Positions 446 through 31,081 are shown, numbered from the stretch's first letter. The stretch is 36,655 nt of DNA from a bacterium (GCA_030689665.1 JAUYFS010000033.1:1-36655); one strand, 5' to 3'. The notes: a model not told the origin generated them from the sequence alone. Translations and numbers: made by a program.

Positions 446-561
446 TTCACCCTCCCAAATTTTTGGTTTAGAAGGGTTAAAGTCAAAGAATGGCATTAAA
501 AATTAAATAAAACTTAATATTCCTTCCATTTTTAGTAAAGTCAAAAACTTAGGAGGGTGAA
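446..561. repeat. Family A palindromic element, long form (A1)
   Basis: TTCACCCTCCCAAATTTTTGG ... TCAAAAACTTAGGAGGGTGAA imperfect terminal inverted repeats around an AT-rich spacer; core 449-558 (110 bp). Confidence 0.9.
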
Positions 562-569
562 ATAAAAAA

Positions 570-3407
570 ATGGAATCAAATTTAAAAAACCTAAATAAGG
601 AACAAAAACAGGCGGTTATTTACAAACAAGGCCCGGTTTTGATAATCGCCGGGGCTGGAACCGGAAAAACAGCGGTGATAGCGCAGAGAGTGGTTTATTT
701 GATAGAAAAAAAACTCGCCAAACCAGAGGAAATTTTGGCGCTTACTTTTACTGATAAAGCGGCTGAAGAAATGGTTGAAAGGGTTGATGATTTGCTTTCT
801 TTCGGATACGCGGATTTGTGGATTTCCACATTTCATTCTTTTTGCGAAAGGATTTTGCGAGAAAATGGTTTGGATATCGGGATTTCAACTGATTTTAAAT
901 TATTAGACGAAACCAGCGCCTGGCTTTTGGTGAGGCAAAACCTGAACAGATTTAAATTTGATTATTACAAGCAGCTGGGAAATCCCAACAAATTTATTCA
1001 GGCGCTGATTTCCCATTTTTCCAGATGCAAGGACCAAGAAATTTATCCCGACGATTATTTGAGTTTTGCAAAAAAACAAAAAGAAGACAAAAAACGCTTG
1101 AATGAAGTGGCGGAAACTTACAAAACATACCAAGATTTGCTTTTGGAAAATAATTGCCTTGATTTTGGCGATTTAATAAATTTTTGTCTGGAACTTTTTA
1201 AAAAAAGACCGAAAATTTTAAAAAAATACAGGGATAAATTCAAATACATTCTGGTTGACGAGTTTCAGGACACAAACTGGGTTCAGTATGAACTGGTAAA
1301 ATTATTAGGGGAGCCGAAAAATAATTTAACGGTTTGCTTCGACGACGACCAGTCAATTTACGCTTGGCGAGGCGCTTCTTACAGAAATGTGGTTCAGTTT
1401 AGAAAAGATTTTGCCAAAGCAAAGGAAATAGCGCTAATAAATAATTATCGCTCCACGCAAAACATTTTAGATTTAGCTTATAAATTTATTCAAGCAAATA
1501 ATCCAAATAGGTTAGAGTTTATAAATGGCATAAATAAACAGCTAATAAGTTCTAGTAAGGAAAAAGGATTTATTGAGCACCTTCATTTTAAAACCCTGGA
1601 CCAGGAAATAATCGGCGTTGTTGATAAAATCGCGGAAATTTTAGAAAAAGACAAAACAGCCACATTCAGCGATTTTGCAATTTTAGCCAGAACCAACGAA
1701 GGCGCTGGGAATTTTTCCCGGGTTTTGGAAAGAGAGGGTTTGCCCTTCCAATTTTTGGCTTTAAGAGGAATGTATTCAAAGCCGATTATTTTGGACATAA
1801 TTTCTTATTTCAAGCTTTTGGACAATTATCACGAAAGTTCGGCAATGTTTCGCGTTTTAAATTTGCCGTTTCTCAAAATTTCAACTGAAGATATCGCGAA
1901 AATAACCCATTACAGCCACAAAAGAAATAGGTCTATTTACGAGAGTTTGTCAGAGTTGCCGGCAATCGGAGGAATTTCCAATGATTCTGAGAAAAAAATA
2001 AACTTGATTTTATCCTTGATAAAAAAACACTCGGAATTGGCAAAAGAAAAAAATGTTTCTGAAATTTTTATTTCTTTTCTTAAAGATTCCGGATATTTGG
2101 AATATCTGGCGAAAAAAGAGAGAAGAGAAGATTTTGACTTAATAAACCAGTTTTATGAAAAAATTAGAAATTTTGAAACAGCGAATTTAGACCCGATTCT
2201 CAAAAATTTTATGGTTGAAATGAATTTGGAACTGGAATCAGGGGAACAGGGGAAATTGAGTTTTGATGTGGAAACAGGACCTGATGTTATAAAAATAATG
2301 ACTGTTCACGCGGCAAAGGGTTTGGAATTCAAATATGTTTTTCTGGCGAATTTGGTTGATAAAAGATTTCCGGTTGATAATAGAAAGGATTCAATTGAAA
2401 TTCCCGAGGGCTTGATTAAGGATAAAATTCCTGAGGGCGATGTTCATTTAGAGGAAGAAAGAAGGTTGTTTTATGTGGGAATGACCAGGGCTAAAAGAGG
2501 ATTGTTTTTTTCTTCGGCTGAAAATTACGGCGGAATCAAAAAAAAGAAAATTTCCAGATTTTTGGCAGAACTTGGATTTAACGCCGGCAACATTGAATCA
2601 AATGAAGTAAATTTCAATACCAAAGAGAGAAAAATAAACAAGGAAAAAGAGGCGCACGAATTTTTACTGCCCAAATATTTTTCTTTTACCCAATTCAAAG
2701 CGTTTGACAATTGCCCTTTGCAATATAAATTTGCCCATATTTTAAAAATACCGGTCAGGGGCAAGGCGTCTTTCAGTTTTGGAAAAACAATCCACAACGC
2801 TTTATTTGATTTTGTTAAATTGGCTTCAGAACAAGGGCAAAAAATAGGTTTTGATAAATTATTTGGGATTTATGAAAAAAACTGGATTGACGAATGGTTT
2901 AAAGACAAAGAGCAGAAAAAAGAATATTTTGAGCAAGGAAAAAAATCTTTAGAAAAATTTTATGATGATTTTCGCGAAGAAAAACCGGAAATTGTTAAAA
3001 TTGGCGATGATTTGGCCCTGGAAAAAGATTTTAATTTGAAAATCGGAGGCCAGACAATTATCGGGAAAATTGACAGAATCGATAAGATTGGGGAACAAAT
3101 AGAAATAATTGATTACAAAACAGGAGCTTTCAAGGAAAAATTGGAAAAAGACGACAAAGAACAGTTGTTGCTTTACCAGATTGCCGCTGAAGAGGTTTTT
3201 AAAATTGAGCCCAAAAAATTAACCTATTATTATTTAGACCAAGGGCAAAAAATTTCATTTTTGGGAAGCGAAAAAGAAAAACAGGAATTAAAAGAAAAAA
3301 TTAATTCAAGAATTGAGAAAATAAAACAAAGCAAATTTGAGCCAACGCCCGGATGGCAGTGCGGCAGCTGTGATTTTAGGGATATTTGTGAATCTGCCAA
3401 AAAATAA
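570..3407 (+). CDS. UvrD/PcrA-type SF1 helicase fused to a C-terminal PD-(D/E)XK nuclease with putative Fe-S cysteines (AdnB/AddA-like)
   Basis: AGAGTGKT Walker A, LVDEFQD, NNYRS, MTVHAAKGLEF, EERRLFYVGMTRA; C-terminal GKIDRID..IIDYKT, QLLLY; Cys in FDNCPLQY and QCGSCDFRDIC. Confidence 0.93.
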   Translation: MESNLKNLNKEQKQAVIYKQGPVLIIAGAGTGKTAVIAQRVVYLIEKKLAKPEEILALTFTDKAAEEMVERVDDLLSFGYADLWISTFHSFCERILRENGLDIGISTDFKLLDETSAWLLVRQNLNRFKFDYYKQLGNPNKFIQALISHFSRCKDQEIYPDDYLSFAKKQKEDKKRLNEVAETYKTYQDLLLENNCLDFGDLINFCLELFKKRPKILKKYRDKFKYILVDEFQDTNWVQYELVKLLGEPKNNLTVCFDDDQSIYAWRGASYRNVVQFRKDFAKAKEIALINNYRSTQNILDLAYKFIQANNPNRLEFINGINKQLISSSKEKGFIEHLHFKTLDQEIIGVVDKIAEILEKDKTATFSDFAILARTNEGAGNFSRVLEREGLPFQFLALRGMYSKPIILDIISYFKLLDNYHESSAMFRVLNLPFLKISTEDIAKITHYSHKRNRSIYESLSELPAIGGISNDSEKKINLILSLIKKHSELAKEKNVSEIFISFLKDSGYLEYLAKKERREDFDLINQFYEKIRNFETANLDPILKNFMVEMNLELESGEQGKLSFDVETGPDVIKIMTVHAAKGLEFKYVFLANLVDKRFPVDNRKDSIEIPEGLIKDKIPEGDVHLEEERRLFYVGMTRAKRGLFFSSAENYGGIKKKKISRFLAELGFNAGNIESNEVNFNTKERKINKEKEAHEFLLPKYFSFTQFKAFDNCPLQYKFAHILKIPVRGKASFSFGKTIHNALFDFVKLASEQGQKIGFDKLFGIYEKNWIDEWFKDKEQKKEYFEQGKKSLEKFYDDFREEKPEIVKIGDDLALEKDFNLKIGGQTIIGKIDRIDKIGEQIEIIDYKTGAFKEKLEKDDKEQLLLYQIAAEEVFKIEPKKLTYYYLDQGQKISFLGSEKEKQELKEKINSRIEKIKQSKFEPTPGWQCGSCDFRDICESAKK

Positions 3408-3408
3408 C

Positions 3409-3526
3409 ACTCTTCCAAGTTTTGGCTTGAGGATCTAGGAATAACAAATAGAATTTCAGCTTAACAAAAATAACATTTAACCCTTAGAATTTTGTTTTTT
3501 TAAAAGCCAAAATTTAGGAGGGTAAA
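3409..3526. repeat. Family A element, long form (A2)
   Basis: ACTCTTCCAAGTTTTGGCTT ... AAGCCAAAATTTAGGAGGGTAAA; core 3409-3523 (115 bp), beginning just after the uvrD stop. Confidence 0.85.
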
Positions 3527-3546
3527 GGTCGCTGAGATTTTAAAAA

Positions 3547-3610
3547 TTCACCCTGTTAAATACTGCTTTGCAATAATTTCGCTGAAAGCGAAATTATTTA
3601 ACAGAGTAAA
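3547..3610. repeat. Family C palindromic element (C1)
   Basis: TTCACCCTGTTAAATA ... TATTTAACAGAGTAAA with inner hairpin AATAATTTCGC-TGAAA-GCGAAATTATT. Confidence 0.85.
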
Positions 3611-4381: not shown

Positions 4382-4440
4382 TAAAAGCCCTGCGGGGTTA
4401 AAAGCCCTGCGGGGTCTGACCCCGCAGGGCTTTTATTTTT
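4382..4440 (+). terminator. Terminator-like perfect 17-bp hairpin with duplicated left arm
   Basis: TAAAAGCCCTGCGGGGT at 4382-4398 and 4399-4415, loop CTG, reverse complement at 4419-4435, then a T run. Confidence 0.75.
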
Positions 4441-11929: not shown

Positions 11930-12385
11930 ATGGCTAAATATTTTACAAAAAAGGGTTTGGAAAAATTGGAAAAAGAGCTGGACTTCTTGAAAAAAAATAA
12001 AAGAAAAGAAATTTCTGAAAGAATCAGGCAGGCCGCTTCTTTCGGCGACTTAAAAGAAAATGCGGCTTATGACGACGCCAAGGACTCACAGGCCTTTTTA
12101 GAGGGCAGAATTTCGGAACTGGAAGAAGCGATAAGAAGCGCGATGATTGTTGAAGAATCGGAAAAGACAGACAAAGTTCAAATCAGTTCAACTATAAAAG
12201 TTAGTTCTGACGACGGCGAGGAAAAATACCAAATTGTTTTGCAAGAAGAGGTAAATGTTATGGAAGGAAAAATTTCTTACCAATCGCCGTTAGGCAGTTC
12301 GTTTCTTGGCAAGAAAATCGGGGAAACAGTGAAAATAGAAACTCCAAGCGGCGAAAAAATTTATAAAATCGTTGAAATTAGTTAA
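11930..12385 (+). CDS. greA: Transcription elongation factor GreA
   Basis: GDLKENAAYDDAK, EGRI, ISYQSPLG. Confidence 0.93.
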   Translation: MAKYFTKKGLEKLEKELDFLKKNKRKEISERIRQAASFGDLKENAAYDDAKDSQAFLEGRISELEEAIRSAMIVEESEKTDKVQISSTIKVSSDDGEEKYQIVLQEEVNVMEGKISYQSPLGSSFLGKKIGETVKIETPSGEKIYKIVEIS

Positions 12386-12386
12386 T

Positions 12387-13067
12387 ATGGTTTTTAAAGA
12401 AAAACAAGAGCAACCTGATTATTTAGTCGGTTCAGTTGATTTTCTCGGCTCTAAAATAGATTTATCTCAAAAACCCTTTATCCCAAGGTCTGAAACCGAG
12501 TTTTGGGTGGAAAAATCGCTGGACAAACTGCAGGATATTAAAAAAGACAAAATTTATTGCTTGGATTTGTTTTCTGGTTCTGGTTGCATAGGGATAAGCG
12601 TTTTGAAAAAAATCAAAAACAGCTGTTGCGATTTTGGAGAAGTTGATAAAAATTTTTTGAAGCAAATTGAAATAAACTTAGCTGGGAATAAAATCAGCGG
12701 CGAAAGGAGAAAGATTATTAAAACAAATATTTTTTCTGGTGTAAAAAAGAAATATGATTGCATTTTTGCCAATCCTCCGTATGTTGCGGAAAACAGGATT
12801 GACGAGGTTGAGGAATCGGTGAAAATGTATGAGCCAAACAAGGCCCTATTTGCCGGGGAAGACGGAATGTTTTTTATAAGAAAATTTTTGAAAGAATTTG
12901 AAAATTATCTTAACGATGAAGGAATGGTTTTTATGGAATTTGACCCAGACCAAAAAAAAGAAATTGAGGACTTGCTAAAAGCAAAAAAAGGAATCAAATT
13001 TGAATTTTGGGAAGATCAATTTAAAAAATTCAGGACGGTTTTTATCAAAAAACAAGCGCAAAATTAA
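12387..13067 (+). CDS. prmC: HemK/PrmC-family SAM methyltransferase, N-terminally short
   Basis: FIPRSETE, DLFSGSGCIG, NPPY, EPNKALFAGEDG; ATG 12387 directly after the greA stop is preferred over TTG 12372. Confidence 0.8.
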   Translation: MVFKEKQEQPDYLVGSVDFLGSKIDLSQKPFIPRSETEFWVEKSLDKLQDIKKDKIYCLDLFSGSGCIGISVLKKIKNSCCDFGEVDKNFLKQIEINLAGNKISGERRKIIKTNIFSGVKKKYDCIFANPPYVAENRIDEVEESVKMYEPNKALFAGEDGMFFIRKFLKEFENYLNDEGMVFMEFDPDQKKEIEDLLKAKKGIKFEFWEDQFKKFRTVFIKKQAQN

Positions 13068-13106
13068 CCCTCCAAAATTTTTCTGCGAAAAACTTGGGAG
13101 GGTAAA
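13067..13106. repeat. Family A element, short form (A3)
   Basis: ACCCTCCAAAATTTTTC-TGC-GAAAAACTTGGGAGGGT (13067-13103, 37 bp). Confidence 0.9.
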
Positions 13107-16251: not shown

Positions 16252-17262
16252 ATGGATTTATTTATAAAAATAATAAATCAACTGGACATTAAAAAGCAGT
16301 GCAAGAAATTTCAGCTCCCCTTGTACCAGTGCCCGCATTTTCTTTTTATTGTAATGGGCATTCTTATTATTGCGGCGATTTTAAGCACCTATTTTATCGG
16401 TTTAAGATATGTTGACGACCCCTTGCTGATTGTGCTGATTGTAATGGTTTTAACGGTCTTTCTTTTGCTTATTGCTTTTTTAATAAATAATTCTTTTGAA
16501 AAAGTGGCTGAGGTGGCGCAACTAAAAACAGAATTTATAAACATTGTTTCGCACCAATTAAAAACCCCGATTTTAAATTTAAATTGGGCAGCGGATATTC
16601 TTTTTTCAAAAGAGAAAGAAATCGCGCCCGAGAAAAAAGGTGAATTTGTTGAGATTATTCGCGAAAACATAAAAAGGATGAGAGAGTTGCTAAACGAATT
16701 GGTAATGGTTTCCAAAATAGAAAACGGCAGGCATATTTTAAATTTGGAAACAGTGAATATTTTGGATTTGTTCAATAATGTTGTTTCTTTTTTCAGGCCC
16801 TGCGCAACCAAAAAGAATGTGGCAATTAATTTTTACAGCGAAGGGGATTTTTCAAAAGACATAAAAATAGACCCCTTAAAACTTAAAATAATAATTGAAA
16901 ATCTGGTGGAAAACGCTGTCCGCTACACCAATTCCGGCGGCAGAATAGACATATTTTTAACGATACTTCCAAAAGAAAAAATAATTTTTAAAATTTCTGA
17001 CACTGGAATTGGAATTAAAAAAGATGATTACAAGATTATTTTTAAAAAATTTTGCCGTTCTGAAGAAGCCCAAAAAATAAAAACACAGGGATTGGGATTG
17101 GGTTTGTACATTGTGAAAACATACACAGAACAATTAGGCGGAAAGGTTTCTTTTTATTCAGAATATCAGAAAGGAACAACTTTTATTTTGGAATTTCCAG
17201 TTGCTTTTAAACAAGCCAAAAACTTGGAGCGGTTCACCCTCCCAAATTTTTGGCTAAAATAA
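16252..17262 (+). CDS. Sensor histidine kinase (2 TM, HisKA, HATPase)
   Basis: SHQLKTP H-box, NLVENAVRY, DTGIGI, GLGLGL, GTTF. Confidence 0.93.
   Translation: MDLFIKIINQLDIKKQCKKFQLPLYQCPHFLFIVMGILIIAAILSTYFIGLRYVDDPLLIVLIVMVLTVFLLLIAFLINNSFEKVAEVAQLKTEFINIVSHQLKTPILNLNWAADILFSKEKEIAPEKKGEFVEIIRENIKRMRELLNELVMVSKIENGRHILNLETVNILDLFNNVVSFFRPCATKKNVAINFYSEGDFSKDIKIDPLKLKIIIENLVENAVRYTNSGGRIDIFLTILPKEKIIFKISDTGIGIKKDDYKIIFKKFCRSEEAQKIKTQGLGLGLYIVKTYTEQLGGKVSFYSEYQKGTTFILEFPVAFKQAKNLERFTLPNFWLK
17209..17233. repeat. Orphan right arm of a family A variant, inside the kinase 3' end
   Basis: AAACAAGCCAAAAACTTGGAGCGGT; its reverse complement matches the A8 left arm. Confidence 0.75.
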
Positions 17263-17352
17263 TTAGAATTGACAGCGATAATTTAAATAAATGGGTGATA
17301 TCAATATTTCAACAATTTATTATCAAACAAGCCAAAAACTTGGGAGGGTAAA
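17233..17352. repeat. Family A element, long form (A4)
   Basis: Core 17236-17349 (114 bp); 110/114 identical to A7 by hand comparison. Confidence 0.93.
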
Positions 17353-17366: not shown

Positions 17367-17421
17367 TTCACCCTGTTAAATTGCCTTTGGCAGTATTTAA
17401 CAGGACATTTAACAGGGTAAA
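17367..17421. repeat. Family C element (C2)
   Basis: TTCACCCTGTTAAAT ... ATTTAACAGGGTAAA, with an internal second ATTTAACAGG arm and a TGCC-TTT-GGCA hairpin. Confidence 0.85.
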
Positions 17422-22739: not shown

Positions 22740-23999
22740 ATGTTTTCATTAAAAAATTTTAAAAAATTGAATTCTGGCTTTGCGGCTTTTTACTCTTTGA
22801 TTTTGATATTGGGAATTGTTTGCGCGACAACAGCGAGCATTTCTTTTGTTGTAAATAAGCAGCAAAAAGCAATAAAAAATGTTGTTCGTTCCTCTCAATC
22901 TTACTATTCCACTGAAGCGGGAGTGGAAGATGCTCTTTTGAGGTTAGTCACAGGTAAAAAATGGTCAAACCCTATCCTCTTAGAAGTGGGAACAGGGCTT
23001 GCTTCAACCACTATTTCTGATGATATTGGCGGGCAAAGAAATATCATTTCTCAAGGCAATGTTTCTGATCGGATTAGAAAAATAGAAGTAATCTCTAGAA
23101 TTTCTGTTGAGGAGGAGAATTTTTATTATGCCGCCCAGGTTGGAGATAATGGGATAGTAATGCAAAATAATAGCCAGATTAGGGGCAATGTTTTTTCCAA
23201 TGGAAGCATTTTGGCTAGTGGTTTGGCTTCAGCAACAGGGACAGTGATTGTGGCCAAAGACGAAAATCAAATCTCAGGATTGGAAGTAGGAAAGAATGCC
23301 AAAGTTTATACCTGTCAAAATTCAGAGATCAAAAGTACTTTAACTTGTGTCATAAATAAGGGATGCACTGCTCAAACCATAGAAGCTCTCACTGAAGAAA
23401 TTTCTCCACTCAATCCGCCAATCTCAACTTTAACTATTCAAGGGTGGAAAAAAGAAGCTAGTGACGGAGGAACAATCGGATATCTGCATTTATCTGGTAG
23501 TCAAACTTTGAGCTTAGGGCCAAAAAAAATTGAGGGAAATCTTTTACTGGAAAACCAGGCTAAATTAACAATAACTGGAACAATCTGGGTTACTGGAGAT
23601 ATCCATTTACAAAATAGCGCTATTTTAGAATTAGCTTCTGACTATGGGTCAAATAGCGGAGTAATTATTACCGATGAAGAAATTTTGTTAGAAAATAATG
23701 TCATTACTCGAGGTTCCAGTCAGAAAGAAAGCTATTTGATGTTATTGAGCACCAGTCCTTCTTTAGAACTCGGTGATCCGGCCATTGAGATGAAAAACAA
23801 TGCCCAATCCGATATTCTTTATACCTCCAGGGGAGCAATTAGTTTAATTAACAGCGCTAACCTAAGAAGTATTTATGCGACTAAACTTTTCCTTCAAAAC
23901 AATGTAGTTTTATCTTATGAGGTTGGCCTAGAAAGTGTTGAATTTTTTTCCGGGCCAAGTAGGGGATGGAAGGTAATTAGTTGGAAAGAAATTGAGTGA
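22740..23999 (+). CDS. PilX-like minor pilin with large beta-rich C-terminal domain
   Basis: NSG|FAAFY without Glu5, SYYSTEAGVEDAL PilX-type motif, ends SWKEIE. Confidence 0.8.
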   Translation: MFSLKNFKKLNSGFAAFYSLILILGIVCATTASISFVVNKQQKAIKNVVRSSQSYYSTEAGVEDALLRLVTGKKWSNPILLEVGTGLASTTISDDIGGQRNIISQGNVSDRIRKIEVISRISVEEENFYYAAQVGDNGIVMQNNSQIRGNVFSNGSILASGLASATGTVIVAKDENQISGLEVGKNAKVYTCQNSEIKSTLTCVINKGCTAQTIEALTEEISPLNPPISTLTIQGWKKEASDGGTIGYLHLSGSQTLSLGPKKIEGNLLLENQAKLTITGTIWVTGDIHLQNSAILELASDYGSNSGVIITDEEILLENNVITRGSSQKESYLMLLSTSPSLELGDPAIEMKNNAQSDILYTSRGAISLINSANLRSIYATKLFLQNNVVLSYEVGLESVEFFSGPSRGWKVISWKEIE

Positions 24000-24040
24000 T
24001 TTTGTTTATCAAATATTTTTTAAGTGATATAATTTATAAA

Positions 24041-25174
24041 ATGTTTAATATATTTAATCTTGACCCGGAATTTTTTTCTTTGGATATTTCGGAGGACTCC
24101 GTAAAGTTTTTAGATATTGAAAAAAGCAACGACAAAATAATCGGAGTGCAAGTTAAAAATTTAATAAGCCAGAGGCCGTTGATAAAAGACGGAAATATTG
24201 TTGATGAAAAAGCACTTTTGGGAGTTTTATTAAAAATAAGGGAAATGACAAAAAAAAATTATTTGGCTTTTGCTCTTCCCGAAGAAAAAAGCTTTCTTCA
24301 AATGATAAAAATTCCAAAGGTGGAAAAAAGCAAAATTGAAGAATTGGTTTATTATGAGGTGGAAAACTACATTCCTCTTTCCATAAAAGATGTTTATGTT
24401 GATTTTCAAAAAGTGGAATCCCTGGCAAAACAAGACCTTAATCACATTAATGTTTTATTGGTCGCAGTTTCCAAAAATTTTGTTAATTCTTTCAGTCAAA
24501 TTGTGAAACAAGCCGGCTTCCGTTCCTTCGCTTTTGAAACAGAGTCCTTATCCATTGCCAGAGCTGTGGTTCCCGGCCAAATGACCCATAACCCGCTTCT
24601 TATAATTGACCTGGGAAAGGTTAAAAGCAGATTTATTATATTTTCAGGAAATAGCGTGAGGTTCAGTTCCTCGGTAAGCGTTTCTTCAAATGATTTCACC
24701 AGAAAAATCGCCAAAGAATTTAATTTAAACCCTGAAGAAGCAGAGGCGGAAAAAATAAAAAATGGCATAGAGTTTCAAGAAGTTCTTCATTTGGAAGGAA
24801 CTGCCGATGGCTTTAAAAAAGAAACAATAACCAACAAAACGATTTTTAATTCAACCAAGGGCTGTTTTATGAATTTAGTCAATGAAATTCAGGGGCATTT
24901 AGATTATTATTATTCCCATGATTTTTGCGAAAATTTGCCCAATGAGAACAGAAAAATCAACGAAATCATACTTTGCGGCGGCGGCGCTTATTTAAAAGGA
25001 TTGCCTGAGTTTTTAGAAAAGTCCTTTCATATGGAAGTAAAACTTGGAGATCCTTTGGTCAATTTTAATTCCCATGACAGAAAAATTTTAAGCAATTATT
25101 TAGGCAAAGAAAATTCATTGTTTTTTACCACCACACTGGGCCTTACTTTAAGGAATTTATATTCTAAAACATGA
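24041..25174 (+). CDS. pilM: Type IV pilus assembly protein PilM
   Basis: LDISEDSVK, IIDLG, LCGGGAYLKGL actin-like motifs; start reassigned to ATG 24041. Confidence 0.9.
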   Translation: MFNIFNLDPEFFSLDISEDSVKFLDIEKSNDKIIGVQVKNLISQRPLIKDGNIVDEKALLGVLLKIREMTKKNYLAFALPEEKSFLQMIKIPKVEKSKIEELVYYEVENYIPLSIKDVYVDFQKVESLAKQDLNHINVLLVAVSKNFVNSFSQIVKQAGFRSFAFETESLSIARAVVPGQMTHNPLLIIDLGKVKSRFIIFSGNSVRFSSSVSVSSNDFTRKIAKEFNLNPEEAEAEKIKNGIEFQEVLHLEGTADGFKKETITNKTIFNSTKGCFMNLVNEIQGHLDYYYSHDFCENLPNENRKINEIILCGGGAYLKGLPEFLEKSFHMEVKLGDPLVNFNSHDRKILSNYLGKENSLFFTTTLGLTLRNLYSKT

Positions 25175-25743
25175 TTAATCTTATTCCCGAAGAAGAAAAA
25201 ATAATATTGGAAGAAGAAAGGGGGTCAAAAATAAAAAACCTGTTCCTGATTTTTATTTTTTTCTGCTTATTGTCAATTTTTCTTTGTTCTTTGACATTTT
25301 ATTTCTATTATCTTGGGGAAAAAGAAGGAAAGGAAATTGAATTGAAAACGCTCCAACAAGAAATTGGATATCTGGAAAAATCTTCCTTGACTAAGGAAAG
25401 AACAAGGGTTGAAAAAGAAATTGATATTTTTGAGAAAAACTTAAAAAACAAAAAAGCTTTTTATTCTGATATATTAAAACCTATTTCCTTGTTAATTCCG
25501 CAAAATATTTATTTTAAGGAATTAACGATTTCTTTGCCTAAAACCTATTCTAAAAAAGAGACCACAAGCAGAAAAGAAGGTTTATCAGCGAGAATTAACG
25601 GTTATGCCGCGAACAGGACAGTTCTTTTGGAGTTGAAAGAAAATTTGTCAAAGGCGCCCTGGATTAATAATTTTTATTTTCCGCCGTCAAATTGGATTAA
25701 TGACAGAGATATAGATTTTTATTTAACTTTTGATATTCCATGA
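25171..25743 (+). CDS. pilN: PilN-like protein
   Basis: MINLIP N-terminal motif, TM, coiled coil; follows pilM. Confidence 0.82.
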   Translation: MINLIPEEEKIILEEERGSKIKNLFLIFIFFCLLSIFLCSLTFYFYYLGEKEGKEIELKTLQQEIGYLEKSSLTKERTRVEKEIDIFEKNLKNKKAFYSDILKPISLLIPQNIYFKELTISLPKTYSKKETTSRKEGLSARINGYAANRTVLLELKENLSKAPWINNFYFPPSNWINDRDIDFYLTFDIP

Positions 25744-26294
25744 AAAAAACTGCCTTAATTTTTTATTTCTTGCTGGTTATAAATTTTATTTTTTTGGTTG
25801 TTTTATTCTTTAGTTTTAAAAATTGCAGCCAAATTTTTGAAGATTATCTTAGTATTGCCGCTGAAAAAAGAGAGTTGGAGACAATTCGCGGCAATTATCT
25901 TGAGGATTTGGAATTTATCAGACAAAACAAAACAAAAATAGAAGCTTTTGACAATTCTTTTGTTAATTCTCAAAACCCCTTGCTTTTCATTTCTTATTTG
26001 GAAAAAGAGGTTTCCAAAAGAGGCCTAATTTTTGGTTTTGCGGATATCAGCAATGAAGACAAAGAAAACAGCAACCAAGCCCTTAATTTCAAGCTGAAAA
26101 TTTGCGGGCCATTTCCCAAAGTATCCAATTTTTTGGGCGGGCTGGAAGAGTCGCCGTATATTTTAAGAGTAAAAAATTTAAGTATTTTTAGGGTTGAAAA
26201 AGAAACCCAAAACGAAAAAGACAAATGCAGTTCTTTAAAAATCGGGGAAGTTAATGCTACTCTGGAAGTGGAAACGCCAATTAAGATTTTTTAA
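25740..26294 (+). CDS. pilO: PilO-like protein
   Basis: TM, coiled coil, G.F..V..FL..LE..PY motif; follows pilN. Confidence 0.75.
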   Translation: MKKTALIFYFLLVINFIFLVVLFFSFKNCSQIFEDYLSIAAEKRELETIRGNYLEDLEFIRQNKTKIEAFDNSFVNSQNPLLFISYLEKEVSKRGLIFGFADISNEDKENSNQALNFKLKICGPFPKVSNFLGGLEESPYILRVKNLSIFRVEKETQNEKDKCSSLKIGEVNATLEVETPIKIF

Positions 26295-26295
26295 A

Positions 26296-26559
26296 ATGTT
26301 TACTGATTTTTATAAAAAAATTTACGAGATTATTTACGAAAAATTTGTTTTAGCGTTTTTTCTTTTGGTTGTTTTGGTTGCTTTGATTCTTTTTGCCGCA
26401 GCAAATATTTTTTTACTTGAAAAAGAAATAGATGTTGAGAAAACAACGGAAAAATCTTTTCAAGAAAGATTTCTGAATGCTTACAGCTTTGTTGAAAAAA
26501 ATAAAAAAGGAGCAGATTTTTCCGATTCCTTGATTGATTTTTTTAATCTAAGGCGCTAA
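26296..26559 (+). CDS. Small single-TM protein at the end of the pilus operon
   Basis: ATG 26296 directly after the pilO stop; one hydrophobic segment. Confidence 0.7.
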   Translation: MFTDFYKKIYEIIYEKFVLAFFLLVVLVALILFAAANIFLLEKEIDVEKTTEKSFQERFLNAYSFVEKNKKGADFSDSLIDFFNLRR

Positions 26560-26560
26560 T

Positions 26561-26589
26561 TTGACACAAAGGAAAATAAAAGCTAATAT
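26561..26589 (+). promoter_or_regulatory. Putative ndk promoter
   Basis: TTGACA-N17-TAATAT. Confidence 0.55.
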
Positions 26590-26602
26590 TTAAAAAAATT
26601 GA

Positions 26603-26645
26603 TTCACCCTCCAAAATTTTTCTACGAAAAACTTAGGAGGGTAAA
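26603..26645. repeat. Family A element, short form (A5)
   Basis: ACCCTCCAAAATTTTTC-TAC-GAAAAACTTAGGAGGGT (26606-26642). Confidence 0.9.
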
Positions 26646-26650
26646 AAATT

Positions 26651-27238
26651 ATGGCTGAAAAACAAGAAAGAACGGTTGTTCTGGTAAAACCAGACGGAGT
26701 AAAGCGCGGCTTAGTCGGGGAAATTATTTCACGAATTGAAAAACGCGGTTTAAAATTAATTGCCTTACAAATGGTTTGGGCGACAAAAGACCAAATAGAT
26801 GGTAATTATCCAAAAGATGAGGCCTGGTTGAAAAAAATTGGCGAAAAAACCGGAAAAAATTATCAAACCTATGGTTTGGACGTAAAAGCCGAATTGGGAA
26901 CCGATGACCCGATGGAAATCGGGAAAATGGTCAGACAATGGCTGATTGATTATATGACTTCTGGTCCAATGGTAAAAATGGTTGTCAGCGGAATTCACGC
27001 TGTTGATATGGTCAGGAAAATTACTGGAAGTACAATGCCCTCAGAGGCGGAAATGGGAACTATTAGAGGCGATTTTTCAGTTGATGACGCCACAGCTGCC
27101 AACAGAGGAAAAAGAGCAATCCATAACTTGGTCCATGCCTCGGGAACAATTAAAGAAGCGGAAAGTGAAATGCTCGTTTGGTTTGCGCCAGAGGAAATTC
27201 ATGACTACAAAAGGGCAGAAGAAGACATAATGTTTTAA
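26651..27238 (+). CDS. ndk: Nucleoside diphosphate kinase (long form with internal insertion)
   Basis: ERTVVLVKPDGVKRGLVGEII, TSGP, GTIRGDF, NLVHASG. Confidence 0.95.
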   Translation: MAEKQERTVVLVKPDGVKRGLVGEIISRIEKRGLKLIALQMVWATKDQIDGNYPKDEAWLKKIGEKTGKNYQTYGLDVKAELGTDDPMEIGKMVRQWLIDYMTSGPMVKMVVSGIHAVDMVRKITGSTMPSEAEMGTIRGDFSVDDATAANRGKRAIHNLVHASGTIKEAESEMLVWFAPEEIHDYKRAEEDIMF

Positions 27239-27243
27239 AAAAT

Positions 27244-27390
27244 ATGTGGAAATTATTCGTGGCAATTTCAATACTACCAATCGCAATATCCATTGCTTAT
27301 TTTATTATCCACAAAGACAATATAATGGCAGTTGTTTTTATTCTTTTGGTGCCGCTTTATTTTTATATTTTTTCTCTTTTAAAAGAGTAA
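27244..27390 (+). CDS. Small two-TM membrane protein (48 aa), not in the ORF track
   Basis: Hand translation MWKLFVAISILPIAISIAYFIIHKDNIMAVVFILLVPLYFYIFSLLKE*; starts 5 nt after the ndk stop. Confidence 0.65.
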   Translation: MWKLFVAISILPIAISIAYFIIHKDNIMAVVFILLVPLYFYIFSLLKE

Positions 27391-27404
27391 AAAACTATGG
27401 GCTT

Positions 27405-27444
27405 GCCCTCCCAAATTTTTCTGCGAAAAATTTGGGAGGATGAA
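27405..27444. repeat. Family A element, short form (A6)
   Basis: GCCCTCCCAAATTTTTC-TGC-GAAAAATTTGGGAGGAT (27405-27441). Confidence 0.88.
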
Positions 27445-27490
27445 CTGGCGAGCTTTTAATCAGATTTGTTATAGCAAACTTTAGTTTGAT

Positions 27491-27559
27491 ATCCCGATAC
27501 ACAAAGTGATCGGGATCCCGACCCCAAACATTTTGAAATTATTATGAAGGTGTCGGGAT
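27491..27559. repeat. Family D tandem palindrome pair
   Basis: TCCCGAT..ATCGGGA joined to TCCCGAC...GTCGGGA at a GGGATCCC junction. Confidence 0.8.
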
Positions 27560-27579
27560 AACCGCTAGGATATAATAAA

Positions 27580-27704
27580 GAAGCATTGTCATTAGAAAGC
27601 ATCTGGTACAATTTTATTAAGGGGATTCCTAATTTGCCTTAATTTAACATCAGGGCATGCGGATACCCTTCTTAATAATTCCAGACGCTTCCTGACAGGG
27701 CTTC
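27580..27704. ncRNA. Candidate rod-shaped structured RNA (~125 nt)
   Basis: Nested stems GAAGC/GCTTC, TGTCA/TGACA, AAGCaTCTGG/CCAGAcGCTT, TTATTAAG/CTTAATAA, TGCCTT/AGGGCA; TATAAT at 27571-27576. Confidence 0.5.
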
Positions 27705-27729
27705 AAAATTTCAAAATTATTTATTTTCT

Positions 27730-28845
27730 ATGGATGCTCTAGATTTTCACAAAAAATACCGAGGAAAGGTAAAAATAATGCCCAAAATGGATGTTTCGCA
27801 AAAAAACCTTCATATTGTTTATACTCCGGGCGTTGCGCAAGTCACAAAAAAAATAGCGGAAAATCCGCAGAATTCTTTTATTTATACTTCTCGCTGTAAT
27901 AATGCGGCGATAATAACAGATGGAACAAGGACAATCGGAGTTGGCAACACGATTCCCGAAGCGTCAATGCCGGTAATGGAAGGCAAGGCGATTTTATTTA
28001 AAATACTGGGAAATGTTGACGCTTATCCGCTTTGTTTAGGAACTAAATCAGCCAAAGAAATCGTCAGAACTGTGGAAATTTTAGAGCCAAGCTTCGGCGC
28101 TTTTAACATTGAAGACATTGAGTCGCCAAAATGTTTTGAAATAATGGAAGAATTGGAACAGAAAAAAATCCTGACTTTTCACGACGACCAGCAAGGAACG
28201 GCAATTGTCGTTTTGGCGGGAATTTTAAACGCTTTTAAAGCGATGAAAAAAGATTTGAAAAAATCAAAAATTTGTTTGGCAGGAGCTGGGGCTGCCGGCT
28301 ACGGGGTTTTTAAAATTTTGAAAGAAATTGGGATTAAAAACCTGGTGGTTTTTGATAATAATGGGTTGATATATAAAAACAGAGAAGGCGATAATAAATA
28401 TCAACGAGAAATTGGTGATTTTAGCAATAGAGAGAATAAAAGAGGCGGACTAAAAGAAGCTATAGAGGGCGCAGATTTATTTATTGGATTGACTGGCAAG
28501 GCAGGACTTTTAAAAACAGAACATATTTCGCTAATGAATAAAAATCCGATTATTTTCGCGCTTTCAAATCCTGTTCCGGAGATTTTTCCGGAAGAAATCA
28601 ATAAAACGACAAAAAATTATTTATACGCCACAGGCCGTTCTGATTTTCCCAACCAAATAAATAATGCCATAGCTTTCCCGGGAGTTTTCAGGGGAATTTT
28701 GGATAAAAGACGAAAAATAGATTTAAAATTAGAGGTTAAAATTGCCAAAGCAATTGCCAACTTAATAAAAAATCCGAGCAAAAAAAGAATTTTGCCCGAT
28801 GTTTTTGATAAAAGATTGCTTAAAACCATAGCCAATTGTTTCTAA
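27730..28845 (+). CDS. NAD(P)-dependent malic enzyme, short form
   Basis: YTPGVA, PVMEGKAILFK, EDI, HDDQQGTA, GAGAAG, ALSNPVPEI, ATGRSDFPNQINN. Confidence 0.93.
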   Translation: MDALDFHKKYRGKVKIMPKMDVSQKNLHIVYTPGVAQVTKKIAENPQNSFIYTSRCNNAAIITDGTRTIGVGNTIPEASMPVMEGKAILFKILGNVDAYPLCLGTKSAKEIVRTVEILEPSFGAFNIEDIESPKCFEIMEELEQKKILTFHDDQQGTAIVVLAGILNAFKAMKKDLKKSKICLAGAGAAGYGVFKILKEIGIKNLVVFDNNGLIYKNREGDNKYQREIGDFSNRENKRGGLKEAIEGADLFIGLTGKAGLLKTEHISLMNKNPIIFALSNPVPEIFPEEINKTTKNYLYATGRSDFPNQINNAIAFPGVFRGILDKRRKIDLKLEVKIAKAIANLIKNPSKKRILPDVFDKRLLKTIANCF

Positions 28846-28863
28846 AATTGATTCAGCCATATT

Positions 28864-29904
28864 ATGCTAAAAATCGGAATTGTCGGTTTGCCCAATGTCG
28901 GAAAATCAACTCTTTTTAAGGCGCTAACCAAAAAAAGCGTGGATATTGCTAATTATCCTTTTTGCACTATTGACCCTAATGTTGGAATTGTTGAAGTTTT
29001 GGACGAGCGCTTGGATAAATTGTCGGAAAAATTCAATTCAAAAAAGAAAATTCCGGCTGTGATTGAATTTGTTGATATTGCCGGTTTGGTAAAAGGCGCG
29101 AGCAAGGGACAGGGTTTGGGAAATAAATTTTTGTCCCATATAAGGGAAGTTGACGCGATTGTCCAGATTGCGCGGGTTTTTGAAGGAAAAGACATTATTC
29201 ATGTTGACGGCAATATTGACCCCTTGCGGGACATTGAAGTTATAAATACGGAATTGATTTTGGCTGATTTGGAAACAATTGAAAAATATTCTGAGAAATT
29301 GGGAAAAGAAATGAGACAGCAAAACAAAGAAGCGATGAGAGAAAAAGAGATTTTGGATAAAATTAAAAAACATCTTGACCAGGGGAAACTGGCAAATGAT
29401 TGCGAAATTTCTTTTGAAGACAAAAAATCAATAAAAAATTTAAACCTTTTAACCTTAAAGCCGTTTCTCTATGTTTATAATTTTTCCGGAGAAAATTTTA
29501 TTGTTCCTGAAGAATTGAAAAATAAAAAGTATATTCCGATTGACGTGAAAATTGAAGAAGACATTATGAATATGACAGCTGAAGAAGTTTCTGATTTTGG
29601 GATAAACTCCAATTTGAACAATTTGATAAAAGCGTCTTTTGAACTTCTTGATTTGATTGTTTTTTTTACAACCGGCGAAGATGAATCAAGGGCCTGGGAG
29701 ATAAAAAGGGGAACAACCGCGCAAAAAGCGGGCGGGGCAATCCACAGCGATTTTGAGAACAACTTTATAAGGGCAGAAATAATTCTTTGGGACAAGCTTT
29801 TGGAAATCGGTTCTTGGCCAAAAGCCAGAGAACTTGGTTTGATAAAATCAGAAGGCAAGGAGTACATTGTTAAAGATGGCGATGTTGTGAATTTTTTGAT
29901 TTAA
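28864..29904 (+). CDS. ychF: Ribosome-binding ATPase YchF
   Basis: GIVGLPNVGKST, ANYPFCTIDPN, DIAGLV, GLGNKFL, IHSDFE, DGDV. Confidence 0.96.
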   Translation: MLKIGIVGLPNVGKSTLFKALTKKSVDIANYPFCTIDPNVGIVEVLDERLDKLSEKFNSKKKIPAVIEFVDIAGLVKGASKGQGLGNKFLSHIREVDAIVQIARVFEGKDIIHVDGNIDPLRDIEVINTELILADLETIEKYSEKLGKEMRQQNKEAMREKEILDKIKKHLDQGKLANDCEISFEDKKSIKNLNLLTLKPFLYVYNFSGENFIVPEELKNKKYIPIDVKIEEDIMNMTAEEVSDFGINSNLNNLIKASFELLDLIVFFTTGEDESRAWEIKRGTTAQKAGGAIHSDFENNFIRAEIILWDKLLEIGSWPKARELGLIKSEGKEYIVKDGDVVNFLI

Positions 29905-29941
29905 AACCAAAACCCCGCATTTGCGGGGTTTTGGTTTTAAA
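29900..29941. terminator. Bidirectional terminator between convergent ychF and rpmB
   Basis: Perfect inverted repeat TTTAAAACCAAAACCCCGCA-TT-TGCGGGGTTTTGGTTTTAAA. Confidence 0.88.
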
Positions 29942-29952
29942 ATCCTCAAAAA

Positions 29953-30144
29953 TTACAAACCTTTTCTGGTCATAGTTTTTATGCACTTAGTACAGGCTTT
30001 CACTTTTCTTCCGTCAGCCATTTTAAAAAACTGAAGGTTTGGTTTTTGCCTTGCAGTAGCAGTCGGATTTATTTTACTTCTTGATTTTTTGTATCTTATG
30101 ACTTTTTGGGATTTTTTCCCGCAAATTTCGCAAACCCTTGCCAT
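29953..30144 (-). CDS. rpmB: 50S ribosomal protein L28 (Cys-containing form)
   Basis: MARVCEICGK, KPNLQ, CTKCIK. Confidence 0.9.
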   Translation of the reverse strand: MARVCEICGKKSQKVIRYKKSRSKINPTATARQKPNLQFFKMADGRKVKACTKCIKTMTRKGL

Positions 30145-30216
30145 ATTTTTATTTTATTTATTACGCCAAATTATCTATAATGAAATAACAATACCACAAA
30201 ATAATTTATAAATCAA

Positions 30217-30819
30217 ATGAATTTTTTAATCGCTATTTTAATTTTGCTTTTTTCGGTTGTTATCCATGAAGTTTCCCACGGCTTAATGGCGGATTATTTG
30301 GGCGACCCCACAGCTCGTTATGCCGGCCGCTTGACCTTGAATCCAATAAAACATTTAGACCCCTTGGGCTCTATTATTTTGCCCCTAATTCTTTTTTTAA
30401 CCAGCAGCCCGATTTTGGTTGGTTGGGCAAAGCCGGTTCCGATAAATCCCTACAATTTAAAAGACCAACGATTTGGCCCGGCAAAAGTGGCCTTAGCAGG
30501 CCCGCTGTCAAATATTTTCGTGGCGATTTTTTTCGCCTTGCTGGTTCGTTTTCTTGGCGCTTTTGTTTCTTCGCCATTGATAATGATTTTCGCTTTTATT
30601 GTCCAGGTTAATTTGATGCTGGCTATTTTCAATTTGATGCCAATTCCGCCATTAGACGGTTCGCACATTCTTTTCGGTTTGTTTCCGGCAATAGAAGAAA
30701 AAACAAGGATGATTTTTTCCCAATTTGGAATCATATTTTTAATTTTTTTCATTTTTTTCCTTTTTCCTTTGATATTTCCGATTGTTCAATTTTTATACGG
30801 TTTTTTAATAGGTTATTAA
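30217..30819 (+). CDS. Site-2 protease (M50 family)
   Basis: HEVSH, GRLTLNP, AGPLSN, FNLMPIPPLDG. Confidence 0.93.
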   Translation: MNFLIAILILLFSVVIHEVSHGLMADYLGDPTARYAGRLTLNPIKHLDPLGSIILPLILFLTSSPILVGWAKPVPINPYNLKDQRFGPAKVALAGPLSNIFVAIFFALLVRFLGAFVSSPLIMIFAFIVQVNLMLAIFNLMPIPPLDGSHILFGLFPAIEEKTRMIFSQFGIIFLIFFIFFLFPLIFPIVQFLYGFLIGY

Positions 30820-30825
30820 ATCAAT

Positions 30826-30854
30826 TTGATAAAAAACCCTAGATAGGTTAAATT
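30826..30854 (+). promoter_or_regulatory. Putative sigma70 promoter abutting element A7
   Basis: TTGATA-N17-TAAATT. Confidence 0.4.
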
Positions 30855-30972
30855 TACCCTCCCAAATTTTTGGCTAAAATAATTAGAATTGACAGCGATA
30901 ATTTAAATAAATGGGTGATATTAATATTTCAACAATCTATTATCAAACAAGCCAAAAATTTAGGAGGGTGAA
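30853..30972. repeat. Family A element, long form (A7)
   Basis: Core 30856-30969 (114 bp), near-identical to A4 in the same orientation. Confidence 0.93.
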
Positions 30973-31081
30973 CCGCTCCAAGTTTTTGACTTGGCTGGTT
31001 GGACGTAATAAAATAAATCAGTTAAATAAAAATTAATAATTCAGCAACTTTTTAAACAACCCAAAAACATGGGAAGGTAAA
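30972..31081. repeat. Family A variant, long form (A8), tandem with A7
   Basis: ACCGCTCCAAGTTTTTGACTTG ... CAACCCAAAAACATGGGAAGGT; core 30972-31078 (107 bp). Confidence 0.8.

What the first reader, a model, noticed from the sequence alone, without database searches (positions are those of the whole stretch)
446..31081. Dispersed palindromic element family (TTYACCCTCC...GGAGGGTRAA) in two size classes with variable spacers
Seen: eight full copies (cores 449-558, 3409-3523, 13067-13103, 17236-17349, 26606-26642, 27405-27441, 30856-30969, 30972-31078) and a half copy (17209-17233). Short copies are 37-bp hairpins with a TRC loop. Long copies are 107-115 bp with ~20-bp arms around AT-rich spacers of four different sequence types. 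Sister family C (3547-3610, 17367-17421) has different arms but the same TTCACCCT left end and near-identical right end. No transposase is in the window. Inference: a non-autonomous REP/REPIN/MITE-like system mobilised in trans by one enzyme recognising the shared termini. Conserved arms with a length-constrained but sequence-variable interior are more cassette-like than a simple MITE. I cannot tell whether it has been described.
Basis: partly seen in the sequence, partly recalled or inferred. Interest (0 to 1): 0.8.

Follow-up and report, generated by a model that had tools for sequence, protein, structure and literature searches.

The report
Nuclease-linked DNA hairpins at gene starts
These are gene-less copies of a tiny mobile DNA hairpin that in other ultra-small (Patescibacteria) bacteria carries a small GIY-YIG nuclease gene, and in this genome dozens of copies have landed just in front of gene start codons.

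Summary
Genome-wide (455 kb, 33 contigs) there are about 42 family A and 12 family C elements.

- About 39 of 54 elements end in GGGTAAA 3-12 nt before an ATG.
- The elements come and go: a metagenome relative (~80% nt identity) has three clean filled/empty differences and one site where family A is replaced by family C.
- In other Patescibacteria the same A arms (10 of 13 loci) and C arms (1 locus) bracket an ~90-aa GIY-YIG gene. Its last codons and stop (…GGG TAA) are the arm, which explains the shared termini.
- That protein is 38% identical to an Azospirillum GIY-YIG flanked by canonical NTS/SRM hairpins, the signature of Ssn single-strand nucleases (Chenal 2025).

The Shine-Dalgarno look is spurious: 6 of 6 same-order 16S tails lack CCUCC, and 0 of 21 relatives have an SD before tuf.

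No HUH or DDE transposase was found. The one Ssn-like gene in this genome has different arms.

Verdict: these are non-autonomous hairpin derivatives of Ssn-type GIY-YIG cassettes, a new variant of a known kind. The scan found this phenomenon before, in this genome (e1-3319294) and in many other CPR genomes.

The parts
446..561 (+). Family A, long form type 1. Right end GGAGGGTGAA lies 8 nt before the ATG at 570 (UvrD/PD-(D/E)XK helicase-nuclease).
   Evidence: downstream gene
3406..3526 (+). Family A, long form type 2, with a degenerate left arm (AACACTCTTCC…). It is the first member of a tandem A+C array.
   Evidence: 105 of 121 identical to C12:1907-2025
3547..3610 (+). Family C: outer stem TTCACCCTGTTAAAT/ATTTAACAGAGTAAA plus two small inner hairpins. 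Its end lies 4 nt before the ATG at 3615 (short-chain dehydrogenase).
13064..13106 (+). Family A, short 43-bp hairpin. Its variant 5' end TTAA supplies the TAA stop (13065-13067) of ORF 12372-13067. Its end lies 5 nt before the ATG at 13112 (acylphosphatase).
   Evidence: identical (43 of 43) to C3:5156-5198
17209..17232 (+).
   Evidence: the same junction is at C12:1907 and, mirrored, at 30972
17233..17352 (+). Family A, long form type 3. The histidine-kinase ORF 16252-17262 reads 30 nt into its left arm.
17367..17421 (+). Family C. Its end lies 5 nt before the ATG at 17427 (response regulator).
26603..26645 (+). Family A, short hairpin, 5 nt before the ATG at 26651 (nucleoside diphosphate kinase). 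It is absent from the orthologous site of the relative L025.
27402..27444 (+). Family A, short hairpin with degenerate ends (CTTGCCC…GGATGAA). It is not next to a start codon, and L025 has unrelated sequence here.
30853..30972 (+). Family A, long form type 3, the first of two tandem copies. L024 and L025 carry family C at the same left junction GGTTAAA|TTYACCC.
30973..31081 (+). Family A, long form with a variant left arm (CCGCTCCAAGTTTTTG…) and right arm …CATGGGAAGGTAAA, 6 nt before the ATG at 31088 (DUF11 surface protein).

Best explanation
Families A and C are non-autonomous, gene-less hairpin derivatives of two related miniature cassettes. Each full cassette is an inverted repeat that encloses one gene for an ~90-residue single-domain GIY-YIG nuclease of the Ssn type.

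Shown here:
- The arms are identical to those around such genes in other Patescibacteria.
- The 3' arm encodes the last codons and the stop of the nuclease.
- Copies are gained and lost between close relatives, with no target duplication needed to explain the junctions.
- Elements sit immediately upstream of start codons or at the ends of RNA genes. The asymmetric long type 1 always points with the gene.

Inferred:
- In single-stranded DNA the element folds into a hairpin.
- A cognate Ssn-type nuclease recognises the hairpin and cuts at its base. This was shown only for proteobacterial Ssn, in PMC11893778.
- Host repair then copies or re-inserts the element into easily melted A/T-rich leader DNA.
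- Selection keeps only copies that leave an A-rich, weakly structured stretch before the ATG.

The CCTCC/GGAGG in the arms is not a working Shine-Dalgarno pair in this lineage.
For: Link between arms and gene:
- L001 has A arms around a 91-aa GIY-YIG ORF whose end …SKNLGG* lies in the arm.
- 10 of 13 loci that encode its relatives have the same arms: 9 on both sides and 1 cut by a contig end.
- C arms bracket a GIY-YIG ORF ending …YLTG* in L136.

Ssn link:
- The L001 protein is 38% identical to an Azospirillum plasmid protein flanked by four hairpins that match the published SRM pattern.
- This genome's own GIY-YIG (contig C22) is 42% identical to L001's. It sits in its own 28-nt inverted repeat that abuts the next ATG.

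Mobility:
- 26603-26645 is empty in L025.
- L025 has a C element where the window at about 27238 is empty.
- L025 has a 40-nt variant A hairpin where the window at 35389-35401 is empty.
- A is replaced by C at 30853-31081.
- Short copies are 40-43 of 43 identical.
- The family is lineage-specific: 52 core hits here against 0-2 in each of 40 same-order genomes.

Position:
- 26 of 36 paired A elements and 8 of 9 paired C elements have an ATG opening an ORF of at least 60 aa within 3-12 nt.

Other points:
- Genomes with the armed gene also hold gene-less hairpins.
- Arm positions 4, 7, 10, 16 and 17 change on both sides in a compensating way.
Against: - No A- or C-armed nuclease gene is in this assembly (96.5% complete, 33 contigs). 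The one Ssn-like gene has unrelated arms that occur only once.
- GIY-YIG enzymes are hydrolytic nucleases with no known strand-transfer step, so how a copy reaches a new site is unexplained.
- The arms do not match the published SRM pattern: 0 hits in the genome and 0 in 14 CPR loci.
- In the CPR loci each flank is half of one hairpin, not a complete hairpin as in NTS-ssnA-NTS.
- Membership of the CDD clade cd10448 could not be tested.
- The position before start codons, and the downstream genes (tuf, groEL, dnaK, clpB, rpoC, rpoD, eight ribosomal proteins), would also fit a host function.
- Contigs have nearly one-directional genes, so orientation relative to genes cannot be separated from orientation relative to replication.
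Confidence: 0.7

Rival explanations
1. Host cis-regulatory RNA hairpins. They would act as 5'-leader stem-loops that stabilise or gate translation of the downstream, often highly expressed, gene. This includes the anti-SD/SD sequestering or translational-coupling version. Their repetition would then reflect recruitment, not mobility.
For: - Fixed spacing of 3-9 nt to the ATG.
- The left end is often 1 nt after the upstream stop.
- Downstream genes include tuf, groEL, dnaK, clpB, rpoC, rpoD, mreB and eight ribosomal proteins. Enrichment was not tested statistically.
- By eye, several same-order relatives also have unrelated inverted repeats in the tuf leader.
- 20 of the 23 GGAGG found within 25 nt upstream of the 466 ORF starts examined belong to the element.
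Against: - 6 of 6 complete 16S genes of same-order relatives have no CCTCC in the 3' tail. 0 of 21 relatives have an SD-like 4-mer before tuf. GGAGG therefore has nothing to pair with. The genome's own 16S is not assembled.
- Family C has no GGAGG yet takes the same position.
- Sites are empty, or filled by another family, in a relative at ~80% identity.
- The gene-sense strand folds less stably than the antisense strand in 24 of 28 elements, with 3 the other way and 1 tie.
- Copies also flank the RNase P RNA gene and lie between two tRNA genes.
- The same arms carry a nuclease gene elsewhere.
- There is no Rfam match.
Confidence: 0.12
2. Domesticated marks for an Ssn-type single-strand nuclease. 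As proposed for NTS repeats in Neisseria, the hairpins would tag DNA around important genes so that incoming or exposed single strands are cut, modulating natural transformation. The elements would then be kept for that use rather than being purely selfish.
For: - PMC11893778 (Results and Discussion read) shows NTS/SsnA lowering integration of NTS-flanked transforming DNA, and NTS clustering around particular genes.
- The window encodes a type IV pilus set: PilB-, PilC- and PilM-like proteins and pilins.
- The elements sit by core genes.
- The repeats show strand asymmetry.
Against: - No cognate nuclease gene with these arms is in the assembly.
- Turnover between close relatives is fast, which does not fit a maintained marking system.
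- Nothing here tests transformation.
Confidence: 0.1
3. A classical transposase- or recombinase-driven element: a REP/REPIN with a RAYT, an IS200/IS605 relative, a DDE-type MITE, or attC-like integron cassettes.
For: - Terminal inverted repeats, a hairpin shape and no target duplication.
- Orientation bias and doublet-like long forms.
- Variable cargo between constant arms.
Against: - No Y1_Tnp and no rve match in the genome. The single tyrosine recombinase is a lone Xer-like gene on another contig.
- The gene found between the arms in 10 of 13 + 1 loci is a GIY-YIG nuclease.
- The arms lack the GTAG of REPs and the GTTRRRY of attC. Both motifs are recalled, not taken from a call.
Confidence: 0.04

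Closest known systems
Ssn single-strand-specific GIY-YIG nucleases with NTS/SRM hairpin repeats (Chenal et al., Nat Commun 2025, PMC11893778; abstract, Results sections 6-8 and 10, Discussion and Methods section 17 read; supplements not seen)
   Same: - A single-domain GIY-YIG protein of ~90 aa whose gene is bracketed by a repeat that also occurs gene-less in many copies.
- The repeats are intergenic and directional.
- The CPR protein is 38% identical to an Azospirillum homologue flanked by canonical NTS-like hairpins.
   Different: - Here the two flanks are the two halves of one hairpin, so the gene lies in the loop. In NTS-ssnA-NTS each flank is a complete hairpin.
- The 3' arm is coding (…GG-stop).
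- The arms do not fit the published SRM pattern (0 hits).
- Copies sit 3-9 nt before start codons.
- The host is a Patescibacteria lineage, a word absent from the paper's main text.
- This genome has the repeats without the matching gene.
REP/REPIN sequences with RAYT (HUH Y1) transposases, and IS200/IS605 (compared in the Discussion of PMC11893778; further details recalled)
   Same: - Short palindromic repeats that fold as single-stranded hairpins.
- One gene-bearing copy plus many gene-less ones.
- No target duplication, and orientation bias.
- Doublet forms: long type 1 looks like two hairpins joined by an AT-rich linker.
   Different: - No Y1 transposase is in the genome.
- The enclosed gene is a GIY-YIG nuclease.
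- The arms have no GTAG tetranucleotide (a recalled feature).
Bacterial MITEs such as Correia/NEMIS, RUP and ERIC (recalled; reviews PMC3184786 and PMC2229807 seen only in a search listing)
   Same: Small non-coding elements with terminal inverted repeats, dispersed in intergenic DNA and often co-transcribed with neighbouring genes.
   Different: - The three filled/empty comparisons need no target-site duplication.
- The parent is not an IS with a DDE transposase.
- The placement before start codons is very tight.
Free-standing GIY-YIG homing endonuclease genes (phage T4 Seg/Mob proteins; recalled)
   Same: A GIY-YIG gene inserted between host genes. A relative of this element carries a tRNA and sits inside a tRNA gene.
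   Different: - Those enzymes are more than 200 aa and have DNA-binding domains.
- They have no inverted-repeat arms and no gene-less miniature copies.

Membership tests
Ssn nuclease / SRM repeat system | Single-domain GIY-YIG protein of about 90-100 aa | tested here: met
   The ORFs between arms are 91 aa in L001 and 98 aa from a GTG start (85 aa from the ATG) in L136. The genome's own homologue matches PF01541 at E 1.4e-19 and is 42% identical to L001's protein. The best solved relatives are UPF0213 GIY-YIG proteins.
Ssn nuclease / SRM repeat system | Homology to a protein whose gene is flanked by canonical NTS/SRM hairpins | tested here: met
   tblastn gives E 8e-6 against 7.3 Gb of plasmids. 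The pairwise comparison gives 38% identity over 79 residues, E 3e-14. That Azospirillum gene has 4 matches to the published SRM pattern within 130 nt of its ends.
Ssn nuclease / SRM repeat system | Placement in the CDD clade cd10448 | not testable with these tools
   No CDD library or named SsnA sequence was on hand. NCBIfam gave only weak, uninformative matches.
Ssn nuclease / SRM repeat system | Repeats match the SRM consensus HGTCWY…RNCYNB | tested here: not met
   There are 0 matches in the whole genome (shuffles give 0-1) and 0 in 14 CPR GIY-YIG loci. The same script finds 4 in the Azospirillum locus.
Ssn nuclease / SRM repeat system | Gene flanked on both sides by the repeat, which also occurs in many gene-less copies | tested here: inconclusive
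   Both sides carry the repeat in 9 of 13 loci, plus 1 cut by a contig end. Gene-less copies occur in the same genomes, and about 54 occur here. However, each flank is a half-hairpin, and this genome lacks the armed gene.
Ssn nuclease / SRM repeat system | Cuts only single-stranded DNA next to its hairpin | not testable with these tools
   This is a biochemical property.
REP/REPIN with RAYT | HUH Y1 transposase gene flanked by the repeats | tested here: not met
   PF01797 has 0 matches in the genome, and the control search hits 6 of 14 known genomes.
MITE of a DDE insertion sequence | Target-site duplication and a parent IS with a DDE transposase | tested here: not met
   The three filled/empty pairs are explained without duplication. 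AT-rich flanks leave 1-3 nt of ambiguity. There is no rve match.
Integron attC cassettes | Integron integrase nearby and a GTTRRRY/RYYYAAC core | tested here: not met
   The only tyrosine recombinase is one 324-aa gene on contig C23. The arms end in GGGTRAA. The core motif is recalled.
Anti-SD/SD sequestering or translational-coupling hairpin | A 16S anti-SD able to pair with GGAGG, and conservation at orthologous sites | tested here: not met
   6 of 6 same-order 16S tails lack CCTCC and 0 of 21 tuf leaders have an SD. Sites are empty or differently filled in L025. The genome's own 16S is not assembled.

The most novel reading that the evidence does not exclude
These hairpins and their ~300-bp nuclease-bearing parents are a distinct, so far unnamed class of minimal mobile element. 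An Ssn-type single-strand nuclease lies inside the loop of its own recognition hairpin. The arms act as cassette borders that can also carry a tRNA gene. The gene-less miniatures specifically colonise the few bases in front of start codons, and the ends of RNA genes, in a bacterial order that has lost Shine-Dalgarno translation initiation.
Probability: 0.35. Interest if true: 0.8.

Novelty: new variant of a known kind. Interest (0 to 1): 0.6.

Why it matters
Ssn nucleases were described only in 2025. Their biological role outside Neisseria, and the way their repeats multiply, are open questions.

- **A minimal architecture.** Here the gene sits inside one hairpin whose arm encodes its own stop codon. 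This shows up in some of the smallest known bacterial genomes.
- **Real-time turnover.** Insertions are gained and lost between close relatives.
- **A strict landing place.** Copies sit 3-9 nt before start codons, in a lineage without Shine-Dalgarno pairing.

Together these give a compact system to test how a plain hydrolytic nuclease can drive spread of DNA hairpins. They also supply candidate nuclease/hairpin pairs for single-strand DNA tools.

For annotation, the GGAGG motifs here should not be read as ribosome-binding sites. Upstream ORF ends and stop codons can also be supplied by the element.

Tried and rejected
- **SD/anti-SD or translational-coupling reading:** rejected.
- **Rfam:** no family at gathering score in the window. 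Near other copies only RNase P RNA and tRNAs matched.
- **Intrinsic terminator:** the elements lack a T tail on the gene strand. Real terminator-like sites lie elsewhere, at 90-120 and 4399-4435.
- **Outward promoter:** consensus hits fall inside only one element (3427-3490) and are at background level for this AT-rich DNA.
- **Published SRM pattern:** 0 hits.
- **HUH, DDE and integrase searches:**
- **NCBIfam naming of the nuclease:** uninformative.
- **Dispersed hairpin families in relatives:** the tuf-leader repeat of G005 occurs at only 4 places, all close together. That of G008 occurs once, plus 2 loose hits at the level of the control.
- **Viral contigs:** 0 matches to the arm.
- **Sequencing runs:** only the probable source sample holds the stretch, and no RNA holder is listed. 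The laid contigs simply break at the elements, so they say nothing on excision.
- **Target duplication:** not resolvable beyond 'none needed', because both flanks are A/T runs.
- **Start-proximity test:** in all 20 start-adjacent elements with at least 25 nt of free spacer, the element lies nearer the start than the upstream gene. These rows were chosen for adjacency, so this is only descriptive.
- **Literature searches:** searches found no paper on such elements in Patescibacteria. PMC12455944 (two passages read) only lists GIY-YIG genes among transferred genes.

Full report
**Setting.** The window is contig C15 of a 455-kb, 33-contig genome with 32-36% G+C on most contigs. The gene set is typical of Patescibacteria/CPR: type IV pilus genes and few biosynthetic genes. 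All window ORFs that matched Pfam lie on the + strand. No 16S gene is assembled.

**Observation.**
- With up to 1 mismatch there are 13 matches to TTYACCCTCC, against 4.5 +/- 2.2 in shuffles. The hairpins are recovered independently.
- The window holds three short 43-bp hairpins (13064, 26603, 27402), five long forms (446, 3406, 17233, 30853, 30973), one arm fragment (17209) and two family C elements (3547, 17367).
- The long interiors cluster into a main type 1 (13 members genome-wide, plus several type-1-like copies), type 2 (2 members) and type 3 (3 members).
- Type 1 reads as two hairpins joined by an AT-rich linker: the left arm with a degenerate G-rich partner, then a degenerate left-arm copy with the right arm.
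- Genome-wide I count 36 A elements with both arms, plus 13 single-arm hits. I judge about 6 of the single hits real and 7 chance hits in coding DNA. Family C has 9 paired elements and 3 single arms.
- The 17-nt core occurs 26+26 times here. It occurs 0 times in 38 of 40 same-order genomes.

**Position.**
- In 26 of 36 paired A and 8 of 9 paired C elements, an ATG opening an ORF of at least 60 aa lies 3-12 nt beyond one end (3-9 nt in these paired elements). Three single-arm A and two single-arm C sites add to this.
- The gene-proximal end reads GGGTAAA and the distal end TTCACCC.
- Of the 10 non-adjacent paired A elements, two abut the two ends of the RNase P RNA gene on contig C2 and one lies between tRNA-Pro and tRNA-Gly. 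At least three are upstream members of tandem arrays whose last member abuts an ATG (17233, 30853, C31:12300).
- The left end often follows the upstream stop by 1 nt. In some cases the upstream ORF runs into the arm (16252-17262). In one the element's TTAA supplies the stop (13065-13067).
- All 13 type 1 copies point the same way as the downstream gene. Family C interiors occur in both orientations while the termini keep TTC…TAAA relative to the gene. Part of the terminal asymmetry may therefore arise after insertion.
- Downstream genes include rpoC, rpoD, tuf, groEL, dnaK, clpB, mreB, ribosomal proteins L21, S17, L15, L17, L10, L7/L12, S12 and L35, a pilin, pyrG, ppdK and polA. They also include ordinary genes. 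I did not test enrichment.

**Not a Shine-Dalgarno device.**
- Only 23 of 466 ORF starts have GGAGG within 25 nt upstream, and 20 of those are GGAGGG, the element's own motif.
- In 21 same-order relatives, none has an SD-like 4-mer before tuf.
- All 6 complete 16S genes recovered from relatives end …GGATCA followed by A/T-rich sequence, with no CCTCC.
- Family C lacks GGAGG altogether.
- The gene-sense strand carries A·C mismatches where the antisense strand has G·T. The antisense strand folds more stably in 24 of 28 elements, with summed energies of -908 against -789 kcal/mol.

**Mobility.** A metagenome contig, L025, is syntenic with window 23979-36655 at 79-82% identity in its three long aligned blocks; a short fourth block is 90% identical.
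- The 26603 hairpin is absent from L025.
- L025 has a family C element after ndk, where the window reads …GTTTTAA|AAAATATG.
- L025 has a 40-nt hairpin with compensated CCGCC/GGCGG arms before the AI-2E transporter gene, where the window is empty.
- At 30853-31081 the window's two A elements are replaced in L025 and L024 by family C, at the same left junction.
- None of the three clean pairs needs a target duplication, although A/T flanks leave 1-3 nt undecided.
- Short copies are 40-43 of 43 identical among five loci, and 17233 and 30853 are 114 of 120 identical.

**What the arms are.**
- An exact-pattern scan of species genomes found the A arms in three other Patescibacteria MAGs.
- In L001 the arms enclose a 91-aa GIY-YIG ORF whose last codons, AAA AAT TTG GGA GGG TAA, are the arm.
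- Of 13 loci that encode relatives of that protein, 9 have the arms on both sides and 1 is cut by a contig end. These come from Wolfebacteria, Paceibacterota, Liptonbacteria, Saccharibacteria and others. The 3 without arms are the most distant, at 41-47% identity.
- Family C arms enclose a homologous ORF ending TAT TTA ACA GGG TAA in L136.
- The shared TTCACCC…GGGTAAA termini of A and C are therefore the Gly-stop end of two related ORFs and its inverted copy.
- The five genomes with the armed gene that I searched have additional arm matches. Clear gene-less arm pairs appear in at least three of them. One is a copy whose arms enclose a tRNA-Val nested in a split older tRNA-Val.
- Across 69 arm pairs, several stem positions change on both sides together.

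**Link to known biology.**
- Chenal et al. 2025 (PMC11893778) describe Ssn: ~94-aa single-domain GIY-YIG enzymes that cut only single-stranded DNA next to a hairpin repeat (NTS/SRM). That repeat flanks their gene and is dispersed in the genome. The authors liken NTS-ssnA-NTS to IS200/IS605 and REP/RAYT.
- The CPR protein is 38% identical to an Azospirillum plasmid GIY-YIG gene that lies between sufB and sufC. That gene is flanked by four CGTCATCCCCGCGAAGGCGGGGATCCAG-type hairpins matching the SRM pattern.
- The CPR arms themselves do not match that pattern. Patescibacteria are not mentioned in the paper's main text.

**This genome's enzymes.**
- There is no Y1 or rve transposase and only one Xer-like recombinase.
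- Two GIY-YIG genes are present. The one on contig C22 is 42% identical to L001's protein and sits in its own unique 28-nt inverted repeat, whose end touches the next gene's ATG.
- No nuclease gene with A or C arms is assembled.

**Conclusion.**
- The best-supported reading is gene-less derivatives of Ssn-type GIY-YIG hairpin cassettes (confidence 0.7).
- That a cognate nuclease mobilises them in trans through single-stranded hairpins is inference (about 0.4-0.5).
- A primary regulatory role is unlikely (0.12), although copies are surely transcribed within operons.
- Earlier notes of this scan reached the same picture, for this genome and for many other CPR genomes. I had derived it independently before reading them.

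Noticed in passing
L084-L089 (16S genes of six same-order genomes) and L061-L081 (tuf leaders): The whole order seems to have lost the anti-Shine-Dalgarno tail. The 16S ends read …GGATCA plus A/T-rich sequence in 6 of 6 genomes, and 0 of 21 tuf leaders carry an SD-like motif. By eye, several tuf leaders instead hold lineage-specific inverted repeats between a canonical promoter and the ATG.
   Followed up: partly
G000 contig C2:34532-34966 (locus L096 733-1167): The RNase P RNA gene (Rfam 151.9 bits, minus strand, C2:34582-34923) is bracketed directly at both ends by two short family A hairpins.
   Followed up: partly
L227 340-510 (G041 contig C15, a Wolfebacteria MAG): Family A arms enclose an intact tRNA-Val (CAC). 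The whole unit sits inside an older tRNA-Val that is split after about 12 nt. The element thus brings a replacement for the gene it disrupts.
   Followed up: partly
G000 contig C22:16461-16775 (locus L009 1418-1746): The genome's own Ssn-like GIY-YIG gene lies in a unique 28-nt inverted repeat (…CCCCGTAGT…). The end of that repeat overlaps the ATG of a small downstream ORF (82 aa, not scanned against any family).
   Followed up: partly
window 27570-27730: A non-coding block upstream of the malic-enzyme gene is better conserved against L025 than the neighbouring genes. There is no Rfam match at gathering score. It may be a leader or a small RNA.
   Followed up: no
window 14286-14373: A perfect 19-nt inverted repeat (TTCCAAATAGCCATTTGCC / GGCAAATGGCTATTTGGAA) with a 50-nt spacer lies between the nuclease gene and the cysteine desulfurase gene. 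It is unrelated to families A and C.
   Followed up: no
window 4382-4435 and 29900-29941: Perfect GC-rich palindromes after genes. The first is followed by a T run and looks like an intrinsic terminator; the second lay outside the stretch scanned for terminators. They are clearly different in kind from the A and C elements.
   Followed up: no
L099 (Azospirillum lipoferum 4B plasmid AZO_p3, 255376-255884): An annotated 'GIY-YIG nuclease family protein' sits between sufB and sufC with an inverted pair of NTS-like hairpins on each side. It is a textbook-looking Ssn locus inside an essential operon.
   Followed up: partly
L136 (contig binned as Bdellovibrionales) and single-arm hits in Desulfobacterales MAGs: Family C arms with a GIY-YIG gene occur on a contig binned outside Patescibacteria. 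Most single 15-mer hits in other phyla are at the level expected by chance in 596 Gb, so only paired hits count.
   Followed up: no
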